From the NCBI RefSeq assembly GCF_009914755.1, contig NC_060928.1: 64,000 nucleotides of DNA; one strand, 5' to 3'. Numbering within the stretch: the stretch's first letter is position 1; each line of letters starts with the position of its first letter. Position numbers and translations under genes: made by a program. This DNA is from the human T2T-CHM13v2.0 reference genome, Homo sapiens. The notes under the pieces are model-generated. The model was not told where the DNA came from. It did not search any database and worked only from the letters and a program-made list of their open reading frames with translations. Positions 1-41,028 of the stretch are shown one piece after another.

Positions 1-268
1 AAAAAGTTTTTTTCCACCTTAAGTAGTAAATAAGAGCAAATCTTCAGTGCCAGAATACAAGTCATCATTCCACACTGGGCTTCTAATTTCCTTGTCTGAC
101 CATTATTTTCCCACCTATAAATTAACAGATGGTAAGATCTACTTCTGAAGGTTATCGTGACAATCTGATGCGACAATATATGAGAACACTTTGTAAGCTG
201 CAAAAAGTACTAAGTATTAGATATATTTTTCTATTAGTTTAATACAGCCAGTGACTGGCCAACATTTA

Positions 269-493
<225 letters not shown>

Positions 494-1248
494 TTAATAG
501 TTACAATGATATGTCTTACTATTATAATTAAATAAAATAAACAACCTTAAAATGGCTTTCTTAATATTTAGAAAGATTTGGGGCATATATAAACAAAGAA
601 TACATTTAATCATATGCTTTACTTTTGTAAAACATACAAACTGACTTACTTTCCATTCATTTGAAAGGGTACGGTTTTCATCAATATAGATTAAAAGGGA
701 GAAATAAATTCTTGACTTTCTGTAGTTTCTTTTATGGCATTTGCTATCTTGCAATCTCACTCTTTAGTCAAAATTTAAATGAAAAAAATATCAATGCCAT
801 TGATTCACTTAAAAGGCAATCCCTCCCTGAAAATAAATTAATCGCCTGTATGGACACTTGGTTTGTTAAATAAGTTAAGCTGAACCCTACAGCTTTTACC
901 TAAAATTTTTATGGGAATGATATCACCTACCCGACAAACTTGGCTTCAAGATTAAGATCACATTAAAGGATTTTGTAAACTACAACATACTAAGCAAATG
1001 TGTTAATACTACTAGACCTTTTTTTAACTTGGAAAATAATTCTCCTTTACTTAAGACAAAGAGAAAACCAATCACTTTGCTTAGAGATCTGTGAGTTTCA
1101 GCAACTAAATTATATATTTGCACATTTGAATTGAGGAAATTAAAATTAGTTTTTAAAAATAAGGCATTTTTACAGGTGCAATTTTAAATACTCAAATAAT
1201 AATTGGGGGGAAAAAACACAAGCATTTTCAGCCAAACATATTTGTTGA

Positions 1249-1386
<138 letters not shown>

Positions 1387-2171
1387 TAGCTCAGATTACA
1401 GGCATGCGCCACTACGCCCGGCTTTTTTTTTTTCTTCTGTTTTTAGTAGAGATGGGGTTTCACCGTGTTGGTCAGGCTGGTCTCGAACTCCTGACCTCGT
1501 GATCCGCCCTCCGCAGCCTACCAAAGTACTGGGATTAAAGGCATGAGCCACTGTGCCCAGCCAAGAAACATCTTTCAATTAATCTATTTTTATTTTCAAA
1601 TCAAAGTTTTAAGAGAAAAAGTAGTGCCTTGAAAAAATTTTGTGTTTGGGGAAAAAATCCATTTTGATCATTCAACAACTTTTAACCAAACACAAAGTAT
1701 GTTATAGAGGATCCAAATTCAGTGCTATATAGGAAACATCCCTGCAGTATCTATCAAAAATAATAACTGAGGCCAGGCATGGTGTGTGGTGGCGGGTGCC
1801 TATAATCCCAGCTATTCAGGAGGCTGAGGCAGGAGAATCGCTTGAACCCAGGAGGTGCACGATGTAGTCAGCCTAGATCACACCACTGCACTCCAGCCTG
1901 GGTGACAGAGCAAGACTCCGTCTCAAAAAAAACAAAACAAAAAAAACCAAAACACTACAGCCAAGTAAAATAACAGAACTGATTAGGTCACAGAATAAAT
2001 GGTAGTGGGAAGAGGTGTGGTGGAAATATAAGAGAAAGAGATAAATGTTAATTAGTCAAAGAAAGGATTAGAACAAAATTAATATTTTTAATTACTAGTT
2101 TTATTTTCAGAGCAACCACTTTCAATTTCTGGGAAGAACAAACCTTTTCTTACTTACTTTACAGGATACTA

Positions 2172-2369
<198 letters not shown>

Positions 2370-3039
2370 TCAAATATGCTAAAAATATAAGTAATTTTAT
2401 TAGTATTTTAAATTTTAGTTATTCCTAACCCAACTACCAAAGCCCATATACCTATTTGCCTGTCAGATGAAGTCCTAAAATAAACAGTAGAGAAAGTTCT
2501 CAAATTAACTGACTTAAAGTGGTAGAAACATAAAGTCCATAAAGCAATGAAAAGGAAAAAGGAGTAACTTAAGAGACAAGTTTTGGGAATCGTTTTTTTT
2601 GAACCTAAAACAGTAAACTATCCATGAAATACAGGTATTAAAATGTAAGTTCACATAACCGGTTCACAATTCATTCAGTTTACTCATTTATATTTTTTAT
2701 AACATTGATACATACAAAAGAATGTATAACCAGTAATGAAGCACAATAACAAAAAGACTATTATTCACTGCTAGTTACAAAAGCTATGTATTTTAGGAGG
2801 TGGCTGGGTTTTTTGGGGTGGGGGAAGGGAATAGGTTTTGTTTGGTTTAGAACAGTTTGTTCAGGAGTTGGAATATCCAAAATGTAGGAAGAATTAAAAG
2901 ATAATTCCAAGTGATTCTACTTCCAGCTTTCTTTCCCTTCCAATAACAGAGACTGCAAATAATATTTTCTTCTTTTTACCACTCATTAAGATCAACAATA
3001 TTTTCTATGATGGTTAAATATGTTATACAAAATCCTTTA

Positions 3040-3333
<294 letters not shown>

Positions 3334-4202
3334 CTATTTATATTTCCAATATTTGTCTACTTACAGTTCCAATATGAAAATACAAGAAATTCTTCTCTAA
3401 AGACAAGAATTTATTCCTATATTTCCCTAGAATGGTCTACTTCTGAGCTCAAATCGGAGCATAAAGCAGTATATTAGGGTAAGATTAGTAACAGGATAAC
3501 TGCACATCATCTCTGGAAGCACTAGGTTTATGTGAAGTTTCTGGGGAGAAGATGAAGGGGGTGGCATTTTATGTAGAAACTGATATAACATGCAGAATTC
3601 ATGTCAAACTGCATAATTTTTTTTGAGACACGGTCTCGCTCTGTGGTTCACTATAGCCTTGACCTCTGCCCTCAAGCAATCCTTTCACCTCACCCTCCCT
3701 AGTAATGGGGACTACAGGCATGCCAACACACCCAGCTGTTTTGTATTTTTTGTAAAGAGGGAGTTTCGCCATGTTACCAGGCTGGTCTCCAACTCCCTGA
3801 GCTCAAGTGATCCACCCACCTCACCTCCCAAAGTGCTGGAATTATAGGTGTGAGCCACCATGACCCACCTGCATAATTTTTTAAAAAGTGACTTTAAGTT
3901 TCAGAAGCCGGGCACAGTGGCTCACGCCTTAATCCCAGCACTTTGGGAGGCTGAGGTGGGTGGATCACTTGAGGTCAGGAGATTGAAACCAGCCTGGCCA
4001 ACGTGGCAAAACCCCATCTCTACTAAAAATACAACAACAAAAAAAAATTAGCCAGGCGTGGTGGTGCAGGCCTGTGGTCCCAACTACTCATGAGGCTGAG
4101 GTGGGAGAATCGCTTGAACCTGGGAGTTGGGAAGCTGCAGTGAACTGAGATCACACCACTGCACTCCAGCCTGGGCAACAGAGTGAGACCTTGTCTAAAA
4201 AA

Positions 4203-4365: not shown

Positions 4366-4857
<492 letters not shown>

Positions 4858-5937
4858 TAATTAGAGCAGGAAGAGGAAGAAACTGCATAGTATGATGCTG
4901 GATTAGAGCTCAAGAAATCCTTATTCTTCTCATTTTTGCCCTACCATTAACTAGATCTGTGGTCTTGGTTAAATCATGAACTTTTCAGGCCTATTATTGT
5001 GTTGTTTAATGAAGTATGTAGTTACCCTCTGAATGAGAGGTATTTCACATGTCTCTCCTAATGCCTTTCCACCCCGCTTTAATCCTGTAAGAGCTAAAAG
5101 GCTCAGGCATTGGTTTCTCATCACTGAAATAGATGGTTTCTTCAGGTCTCAGCTTCTATTAAGTTAGTCTAATTATTAATGTGGTTGAAAAAGGTACTGA
5201 ATCACTTTTTGCTGTTCCTTTAAATCCTTTGTTGGTCCAGAAGATCCTTCAATAAAGTCCTTTTTATGAGTCTCCACTAAGAATTCCTCAGTCATCTAAC
5301 AAATATTTTTGTATGTCCATTACACATAAGGCAGTATAGGAACTGTGCCTTTTCTTGGTATAGCAGTTTAAAAGACCACACTAAGCTCCTTTTTTCTGTT
5401 CTCCTCCTACAGTTAGTTCTCACCTTAACCATATGCTCCACTGTAATTCTTATATAACTTTAAAGATGTGTATAGTACATAGTCTGTAAGATAGTTATGC
5501 TGATTTTTCTTTTCCTTTTTTTGGAGACAGGGTCTTGCTCTGTCACCCAGGTCATGCAGTGGCATGACCTCAGCTCACTTCAGCCTCTTTCTCCTGAGCT
5601 CAAGTGATCCTCCTGCCTCAGCCTCCCCAGTAGCTAAGACTACAGAAGCATGCCATCACTCCTGGCTAATTTTTGTATTTTTAGTGGAGACAGTGTTTCA
5701 CCATGTTGCCCAGGCTGTTTGTGCTGATTTTTCTTGCGTGGTTTATATAAATCATAAAACTATTTCATTAAAATTACACCATGCTATGGTTACATGATTA
5801 CATGTGTTTGCTTTATGAAAATTCATTTATTTGTGTACTTTCTACGTGTATGTTATACTCAATAAAAGCTAAAAAATACACAATGTATTAGAGTTAACAG
5901 TACTATGACTATCTGTAGGACTAAGTGCAAGCATTCA

Positions 5938-7491: not shown

Positions 7492-8896
7492 ACAGGGTTT
7501 TAATGCTTCCGGGTTGCCACTGCAGTGGCATTTCTGACTGTGGGAGCCTCAGTTTCCCAGTCATCTGATGAGCCTGAGCAGCAGCAAAGTACCACTGTAA
7601 GCCATGAGATGTCTCGTCTGAACTGGAAACCCTTTGTATATGACGCCTTGCCTCTATCACTGCTGAGTTTGGAACTTTCCCCATGGACCTTGCCAAAACA
7701 CGACTTCAGGTAGGTTCAAGGCCAAAGCATTGATGTCCGTTTCAAAGAAACAAAATATAGACGGATGTTTCATGCTTTGTTTTGGATCTATAAAGCGGAA
7801 GGTGTATTGGCTCTGTATTCAGGAATTGCTCCTGTTTTGCAAAGACAAGCATCATATGGCACCATTAAAATTGGGATTTACCAAAGCTTGAAGCTATTAT
7901 CTGTAGAACGTTTAGAAGATGAAACTCTTTTAATCAACATGATCTGTGGGGTAGTGTCAGGGGTGATATTTTCCACTATAGCCAATCCCACCGATGTTCT
8001 AAAGATTCGAATGCAGGCTCAAGGAAGTTTGTTCCAAGGGAGCATGATTGGCAGCTTCATCGATATATACCAACAGGAAGGCACCAGGGGTCTGTGGAGG
8101 AGTGTGGTTCCAACTGCTCAGCATGCTGCCATCGTTGTGGGAGTAGAGCTACCAGTCTATGATTTTACTAAGAAGCACTTAATATTGTCAGGAATGATGG
8201 AAGACACAACTTTAACTCACTTTGTTTCCAGCTTTACATATGGTTTGGCTGGGGCTCTTGCCTCTAATCCAGGTGATGTGGCAGGCACTCACGTGATGAA
8301 CCAGAGGGCAATCGTGGGACATGTGGATCTCTATAAGGGCACTTTGGATGGTATTTTAAAAATGTGGAAACATGAGGGCTTTTTTGTATTCTAAAGGATT
8401 TTGGCCAAACTGGCTTTGGCGTGGACCCTGGAACATCATTCTTTAAATTACATATGAGTAGCTCAAGAGGCTTTAAATCTAAGGACTGAATTATATGTGA
8501 GCCCAGCCCTGCCAGCCTTTCTACTCCTTTTCCCTTTTCCCGTGTTCTAATGTATTTTGGCAAAGTTCTAAGTGTTTACCAAACCGTTGGTCTCCTAAGG
8601 GCCTCCTGATGGAAGAACAGTAGGATGTTGGTTCAAAGTTATTTATATGTTTGTGTTACCATGTTAACTTTTCCCTGAGAGAAAGTGTTAACATTGAGAC
8701 TCTAGCCCCAGATTGGTATCTTCTATGAAGATGGATACTAATGGATGACACTGAAAATGGCCTGCTTTCCAAATGTGGGTTAAATGTAACTGGTTGGGCC
8801 CCAGACTTGGGCTAGAGCAGAAGGCATAGGCCAGGGTGGTTACTGCTATATATATTATAGACCTCGGTTCTCATTAAAGTGTTTATTGACAGAAAA
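7492..8896 (+). pseudogene. SLC25A14P1: Processed pseudogene of SLC25A14 (UCP5/BMCP1 mitochondrial carrier), antisense within ABRAXAS1 intron 2
   Basis: Intronless match to UCP5 protein (STTVSHEMS.LNWKPFVY; [25 protein letters not shown]; [16 protein letters not shown]); frameshifts at ~7645, ~7710 and ~8390; ATTAAA 8873-8878; short A tail; TSD AAAATTATAAACT at 7479-7491 and 8897-8909. Confidence 0.93.
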
Positions 8897-25609: not shown

Positions 25610-27460
<1,851 letters not shown>

Positions 27461-32670: not shown

Positions 32671-33477
32671 GGCTGTGAAGAACTTTGCATTGTGAGAACT
32701 CCTTCCTTTCTTGCTCCCTGGCTATCTTGGTGGCTGCTCTTGACTGGGGGGCATCGCATCTCTAAGGCAGGAAGATGCTGGCTGCAGTGAAGATGAAAAA
32801 GTCACTAGAGTTGATAAACTCTAGGTTCCAACTCATTGTGAAAAGTGGATAGTACATGCTGGGATGCAAGCAGACTCTGAATATGATCAGACAAGGCAAA
32901 GCGAAATCAGTTGACCTCACCACAACTGCCCAGCTTTGAGGAAATATAAAATAAAGTACAATGCCACACTGGCCAAAACTGGTGTCCATCACCACAGTGG
33001 CAATAATTTGGAATTGGGCACAGGTTGGGGAAAATACTGCACACACTGGCTATCATTGACCCCATTCTGATATCATTAGTAGCATGCCAGAGCAGACTGG
33101 TGAAAAGTAAAACAAGCACAATTTTTCTTTTTCTTTTTTTCTTTTTCTTTTTTTTTTTGTCCAGGCTGGAGTGCAGTGGCATGTGATCTTGGATCACTGC
33201 AAGCCCTGCCTCCTAGGTTCAAGCAATTCTCTCTCCTGCCTCAGCCTCCCAAGTAGTTAGGATTATAGGCGCCTGCCACCATGCCCAGCTAAGTTTTGTA
33301 TTTTTAATAGAGAAGAGGTTTCACCATGTTGGCCAGGCTAGTTTTGAACTCCTGACCTCAAGTGATCTGCCCGCCTCGGCCTCCCAAAGTGCTGGGATTA
33401 CAGGCATCAGCCACCGTGCCCAGCCATCAAGCAAAATTTTTCTTTAATAAAACTTGCCTCAGCTTGTTTCAAACAAA
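32671..33477 (+). pseudogene. Processed pseudogene of RPL30 (probably RPL30P5), with an Alu inserted in its 3' UTR
   Basis: ATG 32775 to TAA 33110 is a degenerate [20 protein letters not shown]...IIRSMPEQTGEK with an in-frame stop and indels; RPL30-like 5' UTR; AATAAA at ~33446 after the Alu. Confidence 0.9.
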
Positions 33478-34609: not shown

Positions 34610-35027
34610 TGTTACTGAAACATGAGTGGTTTGGTCTAGGTCCTGCTGCTTGCTGCATAGAAAGCCAATCACTGAAACGACGAGTATCACCAAGGAAGAA
34701 AGCTTTAGTCAGATGCTGCAGCCAAGGAGATGTGAGCTCAGTCTCAAGTCCATCTCCCTGACTACTAAAATGCCAGGTTTATATATCAGGGACGAAGTGT
34801 AACAATGTGTAAGAAAACAAGAACTGGGGAGGGGCAAGGAAGCAGTCACCTGGTGCCGTGATCTGGTGACTTTCAGTTCTTTGATACTTATATTTTGAGA
34901 GGCCTGAAGGACCTTTCCTGAGGAAGGAACTCTGATAAAATAAATATAACCTTCAAGCTGAGACCAGAAGGGTCAATTTCTGTGTTAATCAAAAAGAATA
35001 GTCTATGAGACTATTGGGCCAGTTTCA
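34610..35027 (-). mobile_element. Solo ERV1 LTR (LTR26-like)
   Basis: Minus strand reads TGAAACTGGCCCAATAGTC...TAACA; 4-bp TSD ATCT at 34606-34609 and 35028-35031. Confidence 0.65.
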
Positions 35028-35044
35028 ATCTTTTTTTTTTTTTT

Positions 35045-35359
35045 GGAGCAACATGCTGTTTTAATGAGCACTTGGGTGCAGGCGGGCTGAGGCCTAAAAT
35101 GGTGTCAGCCCCAAGTGAAGATGAGGCAAAGATTTTATAAACAGGAAGTGTCCTAGTCTGACGTAACTGCTACGTCGTACCTGGATGGCCTCTTTCTTGA
35201 GCTTCAGGCGTACGTGACTTCCGGCTGGCTCTCTTCCTGCTTCTGCTGTCTTGCTGACACACGCTGCTGATGCAGGTGGCCTTGCGCCTTGGGACTGGGC
35301 CTGAGCAGGCAGGAGTCACTCATCCCCTTAGGCTTTCAGGCCCTGGGGAGAATCTTACA
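35045..35359 (-). repeat. 3' LTR remnant, U3-R only (MER48), followed by poly(A)
   Basis: Begins TGTAAGATTCTC; TATAAAA; ATTAAA at 35065-35060; ends GTTGCTCC then an A run; no U5. Confidence 0.88.
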
Positions 35360-35544
35360 TTCTTGTCTATTTGGTTATAGCAAAGGGAAAAGGAATGACT
35401 TTCTCAATAACTACTTCAGGCATGACATAGGGGGTGGCGTGGACACCTTGGAAAAAGAAAACCTTAATTTTTTGGGTATTCTTGAGAGATGGGTTGGTAG
35501 CCACCACGTCGTTCTAGCAGGAGCATTGTTTGGATTGTCTGGAA

Positions 35545-38330
35545 ACACATCTGTGCCTGCAAGACAGTTATGTTGAGAGGACAAGGCGGTGTTGACAGGG
35601 AGAGGCATGGCCTCATTTGCTGCTTCACAAATGAAAGACCATGTCTGGATTAAGGAAGGGAGGTAATTCTTGAGTGGCTCAGAGTCTGGTAAGGGTGGAG
35701 GCCCCAAAACAAAAGTTTGGCCATACATGATTTCAAAGGGACTATAAAAAGAGGATGTCTTTGGTGTTGTGCAGAGTCTCATGAGGGCAAAAGGGAGATT
35801 TTTTTGTTCACGACTGGTGGGTGTCTAGAGCCAGCTTGGTGAGTTGGGCTTTAAGGACAGAGATAACTTTTTAAACTTTGCCTGAAGATTGAGGCCTGTA
35901 GGGTGTGTGGAGGACCCATTTTATACCTAAGGATGTAGAGACGCCTTGGGTAATTTGGCTGGTGAAGGCAGGTCCGTTATCGGACTGGATGGCTATTGGG
36001 AGTCCGAAACCGGGAATTATATGCATGATGAGAGTTTGTGTGACAATATTTGCACTTTCTGAAGTTTGTGAAGTTGTTGGGAATGCTTCTACCCACCCGG
36101 AGAAAGTACAGACAAAGACTAGAAGATAGCAGAGCTGTTTATCGGGTGGCATGTGAGTGAAGTCTACTTGCCAATCTTGCCCAGGTACCTGGCCCTGGGC
36201 TTGGTGGGTAGGAAAAGTCCGAGGCAGGAGGGAGCCCTGGGGTGACACTGAGTGGCAGATAGAGCAGGACTGGGTAATTTCTCAAACACGGCTGGAAAGG
36301 TGAGGACAAGTGAGAATAGGGCGGAGAAGTTGCAGGAGAGGTTTGTAACCAACATGGAAAGAGTTGTGGAGGCTTTGGAGGTGAGGAAGGCTTTGAGAGT
36401 GAGGAAGAATAAAGCTCCGTTTCTTGACATACCATGGTCCTTGCTTTTGAAGGTTTTGGGCCCGGAAGTCCTCCTTTTCTTCTGAGGAGTAAAGAGGAGA
36501 GAACAAGGATAGGGACAGAGCATGGCTGGGTTTAGATGGGAGCTGGTTAGCATGGTGATGTGGGGAGTTTCAATGAATAGAGCATACAGTTGGAGGAGCT
36601 GTGGGGCAGAGAAGAGACTTAGTACACTGCGGTGAGCCAGCATGTCTTTGATGTTATCGGTTGAATAAACTGTTAGGTTGGCATGGACAGAAAGTTTTAG
36701 GCTTTCAAGGCCTAAAAGGAGAGCAGCTGCCACCAATGCTCAGAGACAGGCAGGCCATCCGGGAACTGTGGCTTTAAGCTGTTTAGAGAGGTAGGCAACA
36801 ACCTGGAGAGTGGGTCCCTTAGACTGGGTTAGAACGCCTAATGCAACTCCACGCCGTTCATCGCTATAGAGGGAGAAAGGTTTGGTGAGGTCTGGGAGAG
36901 TGAGGAGAGGGGCTGAGATGAGAGCCTTTTGGAGTAGATGGAAAGGTTGGGTAATAGGCTGTGCAGGGTTTGAAGGCCCATGGAGAGGGCCTTTAGTGGC
37001 TTGGCATAACGGTTTGGCAAGTAGAGCAAAGGAGGGAACCCAGAGTCTAAAATATCCTGCTAGTCCTAGAAAAGAGAGAATGTCTTGCTTAGTTTGTGGA
37101 GGCGGGAGGGACTGGAGGAGGGATACGTGGTCGGTTGTGAGCCCTCAGGTTAGCGGGGTAAGGGCTAGGCCTAGATAGTGAATGAGGGGGTGCATATTTG
37201 TGCTTTCTTAGGGGAGACCTGATACCCCTGTTCTGCCAAGAAGTTTAAAAGAGAGAGATACTATGGGCGTTGCAGTCTCTTTGGGAGGGGCTACACAGGA
37301 GCAGATCATTAACACATTGAAGGAGAGTGGACAGTTTTAGGGATAAGGTACAGAGGTCACAAGCAAGGGCCTGTCTGAAAAGGTGGGCGCTGTCTCTGAA
37401 ACCTTGAGGTAGTACGCACCAGGTGAGTGGACGTGAAATGTGGGTGTCAGGGTTTTCCCACGTAAAGGCAAAGAGGTTTTGGGAATCAGGGTGTAAAGGA
37501 ATTGTGAAAAAGCATCCTTTAAGTTTAGGACAGAAAAATGGGTGGTATTGGAGGGAACTGCGGAAAGTGAAGTACATGGGTTAGGAACTACTGGACATAC
37601 TGGGAGTACAGCTTGGTTAATGAGCCTGAGGTCCTGGACTAAGTGATTAAGTTCCATCTGGCTCTTTAACAGGTAGAATTGGTGTGTTACAAGGGGAGTT
37701 TGTTGGGCAGAATAGATGACTGGTGAGGAGGTGAGAAATGATAGGCTTTAGGCATATGAGAGCTGCTTGGGGGATGGGATACTGCTTCTGTGATAGGAAA
37801 TGGGTGGGCTGTTTAAGGGTAATGTGGACGGGGCTATGGTGTTCTGCGACTGAGGGTGTGGAAGTATCCCAAAAAGCGGGGTTAACTACGGATGGGGGAT
37901 AAGAAAAGGTTGCATGTTTTAAGGTGGGAGGTTGGAGGAGTAGAAGAAAGTTAGAAGCCCCAGAGGGGTCTGGGTTGATGTGTTGGATACGATGGGGAAC
38001 GTGGAAGTGGAGAGTATTGTGAAGTTTTGAAAGGATATCTCTGCCTAGGAGCGGAGATGGGCTCGAGGGCAGGACTAAGAAAGAGTGAGTGAAGGAAAAG
38101 GTGTTCAGGGAGCAGAAAAATGAAGTGGGGGGCTCGGGGTTTGGAGACTTCTCTATCAATTCCCACAACAGAGACTTGGGAGGACTGGATGGGTCTTGAA
38201 AAATTAGGTAAAGCAGAGTAGTAGGTTGCTCGGTATTAATTAAAAAAACATACTGGCCTACCCGCCACCATCAGGGTTACCCTTGGCTTGGATGAAGCGA
38301 TGGTAGTTGCCGGGGTGTCCGTTCCAGGGC
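35545..38330 (-). pseudogene. Defective ERV pro-pol (protease, RT, connection, integrase; RNase H apparently deleted)
   Basis: PLLGRDIL (protease), LVQDLRLIN, LPQGFRDS, CVNDLLL (degenerate YVDD), WQVDFTHMP, IQSDNGPAF, HTPYRPQSSGKV; multiple frameshifts. Confidence 0.88.
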
Positions 38331-38334
38331 ACCA

Positions 38335-40053
38335 TCAGTCTTCAGCGGCTAGGCCAATGAGATCCGGGTAGGAGGTTCTGGCCAGCTCAGGAAGGGATGG
38401 GGCAGTCCTTGCGGGGGCTGCTCACAGTCCCACTGCCAGTGGGGTCCTCTGCAGAGGGGGCACGGCTTGGTGGTCTTACTTGGGTTTGGGCATTGTTTGG
38501 ACAAGTGGCCTTCATTGCCGCACTTGAAACAGGTGCCAAGTGGAGGTGGATTGCTAGGAGGCTTCTGTGTGGAGCTGTGGCCTCGTGGGCCTGCAGGGCC
38601 TCTAATGGCAGAGGCAAGCATTTGAAACTCTGCGTGTTTTTGCCTTTTACTTTCCTCATCATGATTGTTAAAGACTTTGAAGGCTAAATTAAGAAGGTCT
38701 CGTTGTGGGGTTTGAGGGCTGTCGTCAAGTTTCTGAAGCTTGCACCAAATATCGGGGGTGGATTGGGAGATGAACCAAAGGTTTAAAATGGTGGTTCCTT
38801 CTGGGCTGACTGGGTCTAGGTTGGTATATTTTCTCATGGTTTCAGTTAAATGAGAGAGAAAAAGGGCTGGGTTTTTGTCAGGACCTTGGGTGATTTCTGA
38901 AAGTTTTTCATAGTTTACTGCTTTATGGGAACCCTTTTTGAGTCCTGCAAGAAGACACACAATCATGTGGTCTTGATGGCGGCATCCAGAGGCCCCCGTT
39001 TTGATAATCCCAGTGGGGGTCCTGGTTGGGGACCCCCTTTGCACCAGTAGGCTGGGCAGGAGCTTGGTGATGAATTGTATCAGCGTATACCTGAGCTAGG
39101 GTCCAGATATGGTCCCAGTCTTCTGGGGTGAGGGTGGAAGAGAGGATAATGTAGAGGTCATGCCAGGTTAGTTCATAAGACTGCATAAGGTACTGAAACT
39201 CCCAAATATAAGAGGTCGGGTCTTCTGAAAATGAACTGAGTCTTTTGTTAATTTGAGAGAGATCAGTGAGGGAGAAGGGAACATGAACTCTAACAATACC
39301 TTCAGTTCCTGCTACTTCCTGAAGGGGGCACTCTAGCACAGGAGCTGAAGTAAGAATGGGGCATGGGCCAAAGATGGCGCCTGAGCCAGTATGGGCAGGA
39401 GAGAAGGAAGAACTTGGAAGTGGTTCCTGCTGAGGGTTTGAAGGGGGAAGGGGAGTTAACAGGCAGTGGAGGATAGATAGGGGCGTAAGGTGGTGGAATG
39501 GGTTTACAAACCTCAGGAGAGGGCAGTAGAGGAGGAGAATGGGTACAGGCAATACTAGAATTGCCCTGAGGAGGGGATGGTGTAGGAAAAGAAGTGGATA
39601 CAGCTGACTGGGAAGATGGTGGCTGGGAAGATGATCACTGGGAAGACGTTGGCTGGGAAAATGGCAGCTGGGAAGATGGCGGCTGAGAAGATAACAAGGA
39701 GGCTTGGGGGGTTAAAGAAGATGATTGAGAGGAAGGGGTAGGGGCTGGGAGGGGTGAACAGCAGTCAGCTAGATTGAACGAGGGAAAAAGAGGTAGGGTC
39801 GGGAGGAGAAAGGCTATCAGGGCGGTGAGAATGGAGGAGAAGGATTTGAACAGATAAGCAAGAATTGCAGAGGTCAGGTTGTGAGCTGAATGCAAAAAGG
39901 CCTGGACATAAGGAATTTCTCCCCATTTCTCCAGACGTTGGCAATAATTGCTTAAGTCAGTTAAAACTGTAAACTCGAATGTTCCATTGTGGGCCATTTG
40001 GAGAGGCAGCCTAGAGGGTTGTTTTTTGGAATGTAGGACCAGGAGTTTCCCAT
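38335..40053 (-). pseudogene. Defective ERV gag
   Basis: MGNSWSYIPKNNPLGCL start; CA-like VRVHVPFSLTDLSQI and MHR-like ITQGPDKNPALFL; zinc knuckles CFKCGNEGHLSKQC and CPLCRGPHWQWDC; frameshifted. Confidence 0.85.
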
Positions 40054-40480
40054 AACTGAGGGTAGGCTCGGGAGAACAGGGAAAAGTAGACCATCCTGGA
40101 CAGCCGGAGGGAGACAATGAAAGGAGCAATCATCACCGCTGCCTTTTTCGTTTGGGAACAGGATCAAATGGCTTAGAGGTGTCCCCCTAAGACCAGATGA
40201 TCAGCAAGTGCCTGGCACACATGGGAGCCTTCTTGGACCAATGTTGGATTTTCGTACCGGAGAAACCAAGAGAAGCCGTGCAGATTTTCCCCTGTAAACC
40301 AAACCAGGCTCCCGGGGAAACTTACCAGTAGGCGAGTCCAGTGATGGATGTGCATGCACAGAGAGGTGACTGGAGGCTGAGGAGCTTCCTTTGTCTGGCT
40401 ACTGTGGCCTGCTTTCTGGGGTGGAGGGGTAGGTCCATAGGGGATGCAGACCTGAACCCCTCCCGGGTTTCGGCACCAGA

Positions 40481-40607
40481 TGTAAGAGTCTTGTATCGGT
40501 CTGAACCCTGAGAGCGAGCTGACAGACAATATGGGGCGGTGTGGAGCAACATGCTGTTTTAATGAGCGCCTGGGTACAGGCAGGCTCAGGCCTAAAATGG
40601 CGTTAGC
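40481..40607 (-). repeat. 5' LTR remnant, R-U5 only (MER48)
   Basis: Begins at GCTAACGCCATTTTAGG (R start) and ends ...CTTACA just before the PBS; no U3. Confidence 0.88.
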
Positions 40608-41028
40608 GGGCCAGTTTCAATCTTAAGCACATTGTTGACAAATAGACCACTTTCCAATTTAGGGCAGCACTATTTGCAGCTCTCTACCTTATGACCTCTT
40701 ACTACAAATAAGACTTATGCAGTGATGATCAAAACTTGGGGAAAGGGTTGCCTGAGCTGAAAGAGAAAACTAAAATATATTTTGGAATCTCATTTTGAGT
40801 CAATTGTGAACTGTTTCTTTGTTGTGGGAAATCATGTGAATGGACCCTTTAATTGCACAAATGTAAAGCAAGCACTTATCCTTCATTTTTAGGAGGAAAC
40901 TGAAAGAAAAGATTGTAGATGTTTTAGACATAAGTGGTGGGCAGTGCCAATTTTAAGTAATTGTGTATGGTTAAATGATTACTGTGCCCTGGGACTCATT
41001 TACTTCTGTGTTGAAAGATGTTTCTTGA

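What the first reader, a model, noticed from the sequence alone, without database searches (positions are those of the whole stretch)
35016..40624. HERV-Fb/HERVH48 genomic RNA retrotransposed by L1: a processed retroviral pseudogene, not a provirus
Seen in the sequence: on the minus strand the element starts at R (40607) with no 5' U3. It ends at R with ATTAAA (35065-35060) and poly(A) ~15 nt later, with no 3' U5. It is flanked by a 17-bp duplication, AAGATTGAAACTGGCCC (40624-40608 and 35032-35016), preceded by TT, giving a TT/AAGA L1 endonuclease-type site. Established: retroviral integrase yields two full LTRs and a 4-6 bp TSD, whereas R-U5...U3-R-poly(A) with a long TSD is the L1 target-primed signature, best documented for HERV-W. 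Inference: an RNA of the family that includes the suppressyn locus ERVH48-1 was expressed in the germ line or early embryo and copied in trans by L1. The copy would also record the MER48 TSS and poly(A) site to the base.
Basis: partly seen in the sequence, partly recalled or inferred. Interest (0 to 1): 0.8.

Follow-up and report, generated by a model that had tools for sequence, protein, structure and literature searches.

The report
L1-made retrocopy of HERVH48 retroviral RNA
This is an old, dead copy of an endogenous-retrovirus RNA that the LINE-1 machinery, not a retroviral integrase, pasted into chromosome 4; at least four more copies of the same family were made this way, a route so far credited to HERV-W.

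Summary
On the minus strand the element runs R-U5-PBS-gag-pro-pol-U3-R-A14. It lies between two exact copies of the 17-mer AAGATTGAAACTGGCCC, the only two in the window (0 expected by chance), and the upstream copy follows TT. U3 and U5 each occur once in the 64 kb and R occurs twice, so neither refuting condition is met.

The element starts 30 nt after a TATAAAA box. Its R+U5 is 127 nt, the length a MER48 LTR gives to the 5'-RACE-mapped EVADR transcript. It ends 15 nt after ATTAAA.

The family is the one that includes the chr21 provirus with the 160-aa suppressyn-length ORF. The copied RNA was an unspliced, env-deleted variant that several two-LTR proviruses also carry.

The pattern is not unique to this locus. 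In T2T-CHM13, 5 of 40 examined 3' ends that carry internal sequence lack U5 and end in a tail. Two of these copies are full length and three are 5'-truncated. Two of the other four have 16-17-bp duplications. They sit in different clades, so several sources were copied.

The mechanism is the one known for HERV-W, here in another family. My searches found no report of it, and one review calls HERV-W the sole L1-mobilised group. I could not test the empty site in other primates.

The parts
40608..40624 (-). Upstream copy of the 17-bp target-site duplication AAGATTGAAACTGGCCC, preceded by TT (TT/AAGA)
40542..40607 (-). 5' R. The element starts here, at the inferred transcription start, with no U3 upstream
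   Evidence: (L009)
40481..40541 (-). U5. The LTR ends ...CTTACA at 40481, so R+U5 is 127 nt
   Evidence: Solo and other LTRs match element positions 18-144; sequence
40461..40478 (-). Primer-binding site TGGTGCCGAAACCCGGGA, 2 nt after the LTR end. The assignment to tRNA-Phe is recalled, not tested
   Evidence: sequence; identity of the tRNA from memory
38350..40053 (-). gag remnant. The ATG is at 40053-40051 (MGNSWS...). Gag_p30 spans 38667-38993 and zf-CCHC 38484-38537. It is broken by frameshifts and stops
35560..38270 (-). pro-pol remnant, split over many stop-to-stop pieces in three frames. RVP-like 38010-38099 (17.4 bits, below cut-off); RVT_1 37263-37523 (29.4 bits against a 29.6 cut-off); RT_RNaseH_2 36764-36949; rve 35892-36185
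35542..35543 (-). Approximate junction of the env deletion, from the integrase C-terminal part to the last codons of env. Other copies carry 750-950 nt more here, and the chr21 provirus carries about 2 kb more
35110..35359 (-). U3 of the 3' LTR. It starts TGTAAG after a purine-rich tract, with TATAAAA at 35139-35133
   Evidence: 5' and solo LTR hits begin at query position 102, which is 35359
35044..35109 (-). 3' R with ATTAAA at 35065-35060. No U5 follows
   Evidence: (L001)
35031..35044 (-). A-run of 14 (poly(A) tail). The last two A also belong to the duplication
35016..35032 (-). Downstream copy of the 17-bp target-site duplication

Best explanation
A two-LTR provirus of the HERVH48/MER48 family, belonging to an env-deleted variant, was transcribed in a germ-line or early-embryo cell from the start site 30 nt after its 5'-LTR TATA box. 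The RNA was polyadenylated about 15 nt after the ATTAAA in its 3' LTR.

LINE-1 proteins then acted on this unspliced RNA of about 5.56 kb in trans. The L1 endonuclease nicked chromosome 4 at a TT/AAGA site. The exposed T-run primed reverse transcription on the poly(A) tail (target-primed reverse transcription), and copying ran to the cap. A staggered second nick gave the 17-bp duplication.

The product has no promoter and has decayed. gag, pro and pol are full of stops and frameshifts, and no function is expected.

Shown here: the anatomy, the duplication, the lack of U3 and U5, family membership, and recurrence at four other loci. Inferred: the L1 enzymes, the cell type and the date.
For: Anatomy of this copy:
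- The 17-bp duplication is exact, with 2 matches in the window and 0 expected.
- The site reads TT/AAGA, an A14 tail follows R, and ATTAAA lies 15 nt before the tail.
- The two ends share only R, 59 of 66 identical, and the alignment stops at both R edges.
- U3 and U5 each occur once in the window.
- R+U5 is 127 nt. Gibb 2015 says the MER48 LTR contributes 127 nt to EVADR exon 1, with 5'-RACE ends downstream of the TATA box (passages).

Normal copies look different:
- 28 of 30 examined 5' ends have U3 before R.
- 38 of 40 non-self LTR hits have U5 after R.

The same truncation recurs at other loci:
- chr1:226.82 Mb starts at the same base (GCTGAC...) and lacks U5.
- chrX:130.17 Mb is 5'-truncated, with A14 and a 16-of-17 duplication AAAATCTTGTG[C/T]CTACC.
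- chr2:106.43 Mb is 5'-truncated, with a 16-of-16 duplication AAAATCACTTGTTGCT.
- chrX:121.44 Mb is 5'-truncated, with a long A tail.

Colinearity with unspliced RNA: the R-to-R length is 5563 nt here, against about 5512 and 5598 nt in two two-LTR proviruses on chr14. I derived those two figures from the coordinates.

Retroviral content: Gag_p30, zf-CCHC, RT_RNaseH_2 and rve pass their Pfam cut-offs.
Against: - The orthologous empty site in other primates could not be examined, so the pre-insertion state is inferred only.
- The L1 endonuclease motif is one base off the TT/AAAA consensus (the consensus is recalled).
- The chr1 full-length copy has no clean duplication, and its tail is now (CA)n. 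That copy is weaker support.
- Nothing here shows directly which enzyme made the copy.
Confidence: 0.93

Rival explanations
1. An ordinary integrase-made provirus that later lost its 5' U3 and its 3' U5 through two separate deletions.
For: Old proviruses often carry deletions. This element is old: the nearest relatives are only 85-88% identical.
Against: - Both deletions would have to end exactly at the transcription start and at the poly(A) site.
- A 14-A run would have to arise exactly at the R end.
- An exact 17-bp repeat would have to abut both new ends.
- Integrase duplications are 4-6 bp (established knowledge).
- Four other loci show the same ends.
Confidence: 0.02
2. A reverse-transcribed copy of the same RNA, but made and inserted without L1. 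For example, the retrovirus's own reverse transcriptase made a cDNA that was captured at a chromosome break.
For: The family once encoded its own reverse transcriptase (RVT_1 and RNase H remnants). The enzyme cannot be read from the product.
Against: - Retroviral reverse transcription rebuilds full LTRs and does not keep a poly(A) tail.
- Break capture does not give 16-17-bp duplications that start with A-runs.
- Such duplications occur at three independent loci, and three copies show the 5' truncation typical of L1.
Confidence: 0.04
3. Not an independent insertion: the shape was inherited through segmental duplication of another retrocopy locus.
For: None found.
Against: - The 243-nt 5' flank matches only itself in the genome, 1 hit of 1 candidate.
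- The flanks of the five loci differ.
- The best non-self identity is 88% or less.
Confidence: 0.01

Closest known systems
HERV-W processed pseudogenes (Pavlicek et al. 2002, cited but not held here; Grandi et al. 2016, PMC5016936, passages read)
   Same: - The same architecture: a 5' LTR reduced to R-U5 and a 3' LTR reduced to U3-R.
- As I recall the HERV-W literature, those copies also have a poly(A) tail, L1-type duplications and frequent 5' truncation.
- The same inferred mechanism, L1 acting in trans.
- A similar era, in catarrhine ancestors.
   Different: - A different retroviral family: HERVH48/MER48 in the HERVHF supergroup, not HERVW9.
- Here such copies are a minority, 5 of 40 examined 3' ends. 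In HERV-W, 135 of 213 elements are pseudogenes.
Ordinary mRNA processed pseudogenes, such as RPL30P5 about 2 kb away in this window (hub annotation)
   Same: A promoterless copy of a polyadenylated RNA. The L1 origin of such pseudogenes is recalled; I did not examine RPL30P5.
   Different: The template is a retroviral genomic RNA. The copy therefore carries a U3 promoter internally at its 3' end and the repeated R at both ends.
Canonical HERVH48 proviruses, including the chr21 locus with the 160-aa suppressyn-length ORF (ERVH48-1/HERV-Fb1)
   Same: The same LTR, leader, gag-pol and env tail. Identity is 81% over element 5082-5581.
   Different: - Those copies have U3-R-U5 at both ends.
- The chr21 locus keeps env sequence that is deleted here.

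Membership tests
L1-mediated processed pseudogene (retrocopy) | 5' end at the transcription start of the source RNA, with no promoter (U3) upstream | tested here: met
   - The element starts 30 nt after the TATAAAA homologue.
- No U3 lies within 1.5 kb upstream or anywhere else in the window.
- R+U5 is 127 nt, the same as the MER48 share of the RACE-mapped EVADR exon 1.
L1-mediated processed pseudogene (retrocopy) | 3' end at the poly(A) site, followed by an A tail | tested here: met
   ATTAAA, then 15 nt, then A14, with no U5.
L1-mediated processed pseudogene (retrocopy) | Target-site duplication of about 7-20 bp directly abutting both ends | tested here: met
   17 of 17 bp identical; 2 matches in the window against 0 expected.
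L1-mediated processed pseudogene (retrocopy) | Insertion at an L1 endonuclease-type site (TT/AAAA-like) | tested here: met
   TT/AAGA, one base from the consensus. The consensus itself is recalled.
L1-mediated processed pseudogene (retrocopy) | Colinear with the mature source RNA | tested here: met
   - R-to-R is 5563 nt, against about 5512 and 5598 nt in two two-LTR proviruses (derived from coordinates).
- The env deletion is shared with two-LTR proviruses.
L1-mediated processed pseudogene (retrocopy) | An empty orthologous site with one copy of the duplicated sequence in species that lack the insertion | not testable with these tools
   No primate genomes are held. The flank is unique in the human genome, so there is no paralogous stand-in either.
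HERVH48 / MER48 endogenous retrovirus (HERV-Fb1 type) | LTR and internal similarity to family members, including the suppressyn provirus | tested here: met
   - 40 non-self hits for U3-R and 40 for R-U5-leader, at 77-87% identity.
- The chr21 provirus is among them and carries a 160-aa minus-strand ORF, as Sugimoto 2013 describes.
HERVH48 / MER48 endogenous retrovirus (HERV-Fb1 type) | Gammaretrovirus-like gag-pro-pol | tested here: met
   Gag_p30 2e-19, zf-CCHC 1.7e-6, RT_RNaseH_2 1.7e-9 and rve 7e-21. RVT_1 and RVP fall just below their cut-offs.
HERVH48 / MER48 endogenous retrovirus (HERV-Fb1 type) | Primer-binding site for tRNA-Phe | tested here: inconclusive
   An 18-nt site, TGGTGCCGAAACCCGGGA, lies 2 nt after U5. 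Its match to tRNA-Phe is recalled and was not compared with a tRNA gene.
HERVH48 / MER48 endogenous retrovirus (HERV-Fb1 type) | Classification against the Dfam/Repbase MER48 and HERVH48-int models | not testable with these tools
   No repeat library is on hand.
Integrase-made provirus | Two complete LTRs (U3-R-U5) and a 4-6-bp duplication | tested here: not met
   The 5' U3 and 3' U5 are absent, and the duplication is 17 bp.

The most novel reading that the evidence does not exclude
HERVH48/MER48 is a second human endogenous-retrovirus group that LINE-1 mobilised repeatedly. At least five independent events came from several source lineages, about one in eight of the examined copies that carry internal sequence. 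This would contradict the statement that HERV-W is the sole such group. It would suggest that L1 copying of retroviral RNA was a general side effect of germ-line or early-embryo LTR activity in catarrhine ancestors. These retrocopies also act as base-resolution fossils of the MER48 start and poly(A) sites.
Probability: 0.6. Interest if true: 0.5.

Novelty: new member of a known kind. Interest (0 to 1): 0.4.

Why it matters
- **Amplification route.** The LINE-1 route of retroviral amplification is treated as a HERV-W peculiarity in the review read here. This locus and its four siblings show that it also acted on another family.
- **Effect on catalogues.** HERV catalogues and transcript studies may count promoterless retrocopies as proviruses. 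Vargiu 2016 states that the two were not told apart.
- **Transcript ends.** The retrocopies fix the transcription start and poly(A) site of MER48 LTRs, a family with active promoters at the suppressyn and EVADR loci.
- **This locus.** The element itself is dead, and nothing suggests a function.

Tried and rejected
- **Paralogous empty site.** The 243-nt 5' flank matches only itself in the genome, so no stand-in for the empty site exists.
- **Looser screen for more retrocopies.** A pattern of the R end plus A6 with up to 3 mismatches gave 34 hits.
  - 3 are retrocopies already known.
  - 13 are regular LTRs that read ...CCACAC.
  - 5 look like a different repeat (GCATGGTAC..., L1-like by recall).
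  - 3 are further chr1 copies with the same 24-mer as one tested locus.
  - I fetched the other 10, and 0 of 10 had any U3 or R similarity upstream. I take these as chance matches.
- **Was the missing env spliced out of this RNA?** Rejected. The same junction is present in two-LTR proviruses (L002, L003, L042, L043, L051).
- **Dating from the two R copies.** Rejected. They come from two different LTRs of the source and were not necessarily identical at insertion.
- **Sources not available.** Pavlicek 2002 (PMC155283) is not held, so I could not check whether it mentions other families.
- **Literature searches.** Seven searches found no description of HERVH48, MER48 or HERV-Fb processed pseudogenes.
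Full report
**1. Observation**

Read on the minus strand, the stretch 40624-35016 has this order:
- the 17-mer AAGATTGAAACTGGCCC;
- a block starting GCTAACGCCATTTTAGG...;
- a leader with an 18-nt primer-binding site;
- decayed gag, pro and pol;
- a U3 with a TATAAAA box;
- a second copy of the GCT.AC.CCATTTTAGG... block, containing ATTAAA;
- fourteen A;
- the same 17-mer again.

The 17-mer occurs exactly twice in the window even when 2 mismatches are allowed, and 100 shuffles gave none. The upstream copy follows ...GTGCTT, so the target reads TT/AAGA.

A local alignment of the two ends covers only 40607-40542 against 35109-35044. It is 59 of 66 identical and stops at both edges. Across the whole window U3 occurs once, U5 plus leader once, and R twice.

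**2. What the parts are**

- **U3 start.** Genome hits of the U3-R query begin either at query position 1 (3' ends with internal sequence) or near position 102 (solo or 5' LTRs). That places the U3 start at 35359, TGTAAG....
- **LTR end.** LTRs elsewhere match element positions 18-144. The LTR therefore ends at 40481, and R+U5 is 127 nt.
- **Transcription start.** R starts 30 nt after the first T of TATAAAA (35139). Gibb et al. 2015 (PMC4375928, passages) report that a MER48 LTR contributes 127 nt to exon 1 of the EVADR RNA. [quoted passage not shown] The 5' end of this element therefore coincides, within a few bases, with an experimentally mapped MER48 start.
- **Coding remnants.** Pfam finds Gag_p30, zf-CCHC, RT_RNaseH_2 and rve above their cut-offs. 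RVT_1 and RVP fall just below theirs, and no env domain is found. The reading frames are broken into many stop-to-stop pieces in all three frames.
- **Primer-binding site.** Its reading as tRNA-Phe is from memory and was not tested.

**3. Family**

The U3-R query and the R-U5-leader query each gave 41 scored hits in the window's own assembly, one of them the element itself, out of 180 and 173 first-look candidates. Identity to non-self hits is 77-87%.

One hit is a provirus at C21:41.305-41.314 Mb. Its minus strand carries a 160-aa ORF in the env position. Sugimoto et al. 2013 (PMC3598002, passages) describe suppressyn as a 160-aa product of HERV-Fb1 env, in reverse orientation on 21q22.3. The Frank et al. 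preprint (passages) calls that provirus HERVH48. The family assignment is therefore supported.

One naming point: Vargiu et al. 2016 (PMC4724089, passages) list HERVH48 (HERVH48I/MER48) and 'HERVFB' (HERVFH21/LTR21A) as separate groups.

**4. Which RNA was copied**

Compared with the chr21 provirus, this element lacks everything from the integrase C-terminal part (after ...CLAGTDVF) to the last codons of env. Several other copies keep 750-950 nt there.

The same junction as here is present in two-LTR proviruses (L002, L003, L042, L043, L051). The deletion therefore belonged to the source lineage and was not a splice of this RNA.

The R-to-R length is 5563 nt. Two two-LTR proviruses on chr14 give about 5512 and 5598 nt, which I derived from the coordinates. 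The template was an unspliced genomic RNA of an env-deleted variant.

**5. Family-wide screen**

*5' ends.* Of the 41 hits, 30 were cut as loci and examined.
- 28 of 30 have U3 directly before R.
- 2 of 30 do not: this element and C1:226.83 Mb.

*LTR 3' sides.* Of the 40 non-self hits:
- 38 have U5 after R, one of them after an inserted stretch of about 290 nt;
- 1 breaks off inside R against an inverted LTR, so it cannot be judged;
- 1 lacks U5, at the same chr1 locus.

*Pattern search.* The R end plus ten A, with up to 3 mismatches, hit three places: this element and two chrX loci. The reversed control pattern gave 0.

*3' ends with internal sequence.* A query aimed at these listed 39 non-self hits, scored from 156 candidates.
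- 35 have U5.
- 4 do not: chr1:226.82 Mb, chr2:106.43 Mb, chrX:121.44 Mb and chrX:130.17 Mb.
- Counting this element, that is 5 of 40.

*The four other loci.*

| Locus | 5' extent | Tail | Duplication |
|---|---|---|---|
| chr1:226.82 Mb | Full length; starts at the same base (GCTGAC...); matches element positions 18-4108 and 5083-5581 | (CA)n | No clean one |
| chrX:130.17 Mb | Starts near element position 4850 | A14 | AAAATCTTGTG[C/T]CTACC, 16 of 17 |
| chr2:106.43 Mb | Starts inside the env remnant | (CA)n | AAAATCACTTGTTGCT, 16 of 16 |
| chrX:121.44 Mb | Starts near element position 4142 | At least 24 A | Ambiguous (see below) |

The chrX:121.44 Mb copy lies in an A-rich part of an older repeat. 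Its two flanks abut in a diverged paralogous copy of that repeat in this window (27328-27153), but the alignments are weak, at about 75% identity.

A looser pattern search added nothing. Of its 34 hits, 10 candidates were fetched, and 0 of 10 had U3 upstream.

All counts are lower bounds, because each genome search scored only 40 candidates.

**6. Relationships and age**

I built a maximum-likelihood tree from 37 3' segments covering element positions 5083-5581.
- 43 HSPs covered the query well, and 6 were dropped as duplicates of the same place.
- Loci with split HSPs (L057, L076, L077, L080, L083) and LTR-only loci were left out.

The tree is star-like. The mean terminal branch is 0.080, and this element's is 0.095. 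The five retrocopies sit in different parts of the tree (support values were not inspected). Several source elements were therefore copied, not one master.

With a recalled neutral rate of about 2.2e-9 per site per year, the branches suggest roughly 35-45 million years as an upper bound. That is in line with two published observations:
- the catarrhine age (27-38 My) given for the suppressyn provirus;
- the absence of the EVADR MER48 from New World monkeys and prosimians (figure legend).

The estimate is rough. It rests on 500 nt, CpG decay was not removed, and the terminal branch includes time spent in the source lineage.

**7. Mechanism and rivals**

The combination seen here is the signature of LINE-1 target-primed reverse transcription acting on a cellular polyadenylated RNA:
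- a start at the cap site;
- an end at the poly(A) site with a tail;
- a 16-17-bp duplication that begins with A;
- 5' truncation in three sibling copies.

The rivals fare poorly.
- Two precise deletions of a normal provirus cannot explain the tail, the duplication or the recurrence.
- A non-L1 cDNA capture does not predict long duplications starting with A at three loci.
- Segmental duplication is excluded, because the flank is unique.

The enzyme and the cell type are inferred. Expression in the germ line or early embryo is required for inheritance. The suppressyn LTR is reported as open from the 8-cell stage and in embryonic stem cells, which fits but concerns one present-day locus.

**8. 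Comparison with what is known**

The closest known case is HERV-W. Grandi et al. 2016 classify 135 of 213 HERV-W elements as L1-processed pseudogenes with R-U5 and U3-R ends (passages). [quoted passage not shown] Vargiu 2016 notes that 'proviruses' may include processed pseudogenes and that the two were not separated.

Seven full-text searches found no description of such copies for HERVH48, MER48 or HERV-Fb. Pavlicek 2002 is not held, and neither it nor Costas 2002 could be read. Either may mention other families, and supplements were not consulted.

**9. Verdict**

It is a new family member of a known kind of event, extended here from one locus to at least five.

L1 can copy any polyadenylated RNA, so a specialist would find this a useful correction rather than a surprise. 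The locus has no expected function. Interest is moderate.

Noticed in passing
L064 (C1:226.82 Mb) and L088 (C2:106.43 Mb): Two of the five retrocopies end in a long (CA)n run where the A tail should be. In both, R ends ...TACA before the run. The tail may have turned into a CA microsatellite, perhaps seeded by the CACAC at the R/U5 border.
   Followed up: partly
window ~35542-35543; L005-L008, L040, L041: The family has at least three env states: about 2 kb of env at the chr21 provirus, a 750-950-nt remnant in many copies, and none in this element and several two-LTR proviruses. The env-less form evidently still amplified as proviruses.
   Followed up: partly
window 38440-38540 (minus): The nucleocapsid remnant has a standard CCHC knuckle (CFKCGNEGHLSKQC). 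It is followed by a second, shortened one (CPLCRGPHWQWDC, which is CX2CX3HX4C), the form Grandi 2016 describes for HERV-W and some HERV-H.
   Followed up: no
L090 777-1211 (minus), chr21 provirus: Besides the 160-aa ORF, the chr21 provirus keeps a 144-aa ORF that looks like the transmembrane part of env (...YQNRLALDYLLAEEGAGCGKF... followed by a hydrophobic stretch).
   Followed up: no
window 32775-33110 and 7496-8679: The hub annotation lists two ordinary pseudogenes in the same window (RPL30P5 about 2 kb away, and SLC25A14P1). If they are retrocopies, which I did not check, the region took several L1-mediated insertions.
   Followed up: no
L031/L046 (C16:38.217 Mb): This locus has two LTR units about 560 nt apart, with a short piece of the 3' internal region between them and a normal leader after the second. 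It is a rearranged or tandem HERVH48 arrangement.
   Followed up: no
window 27153-27328 (minus): This is a diverged copy of the repeat (L1-like by recall) into which the chrX:121.44 Mb retrocopy inserted. It served as a rough paralogous 'empty site' for that locus.
   Followed up: partly
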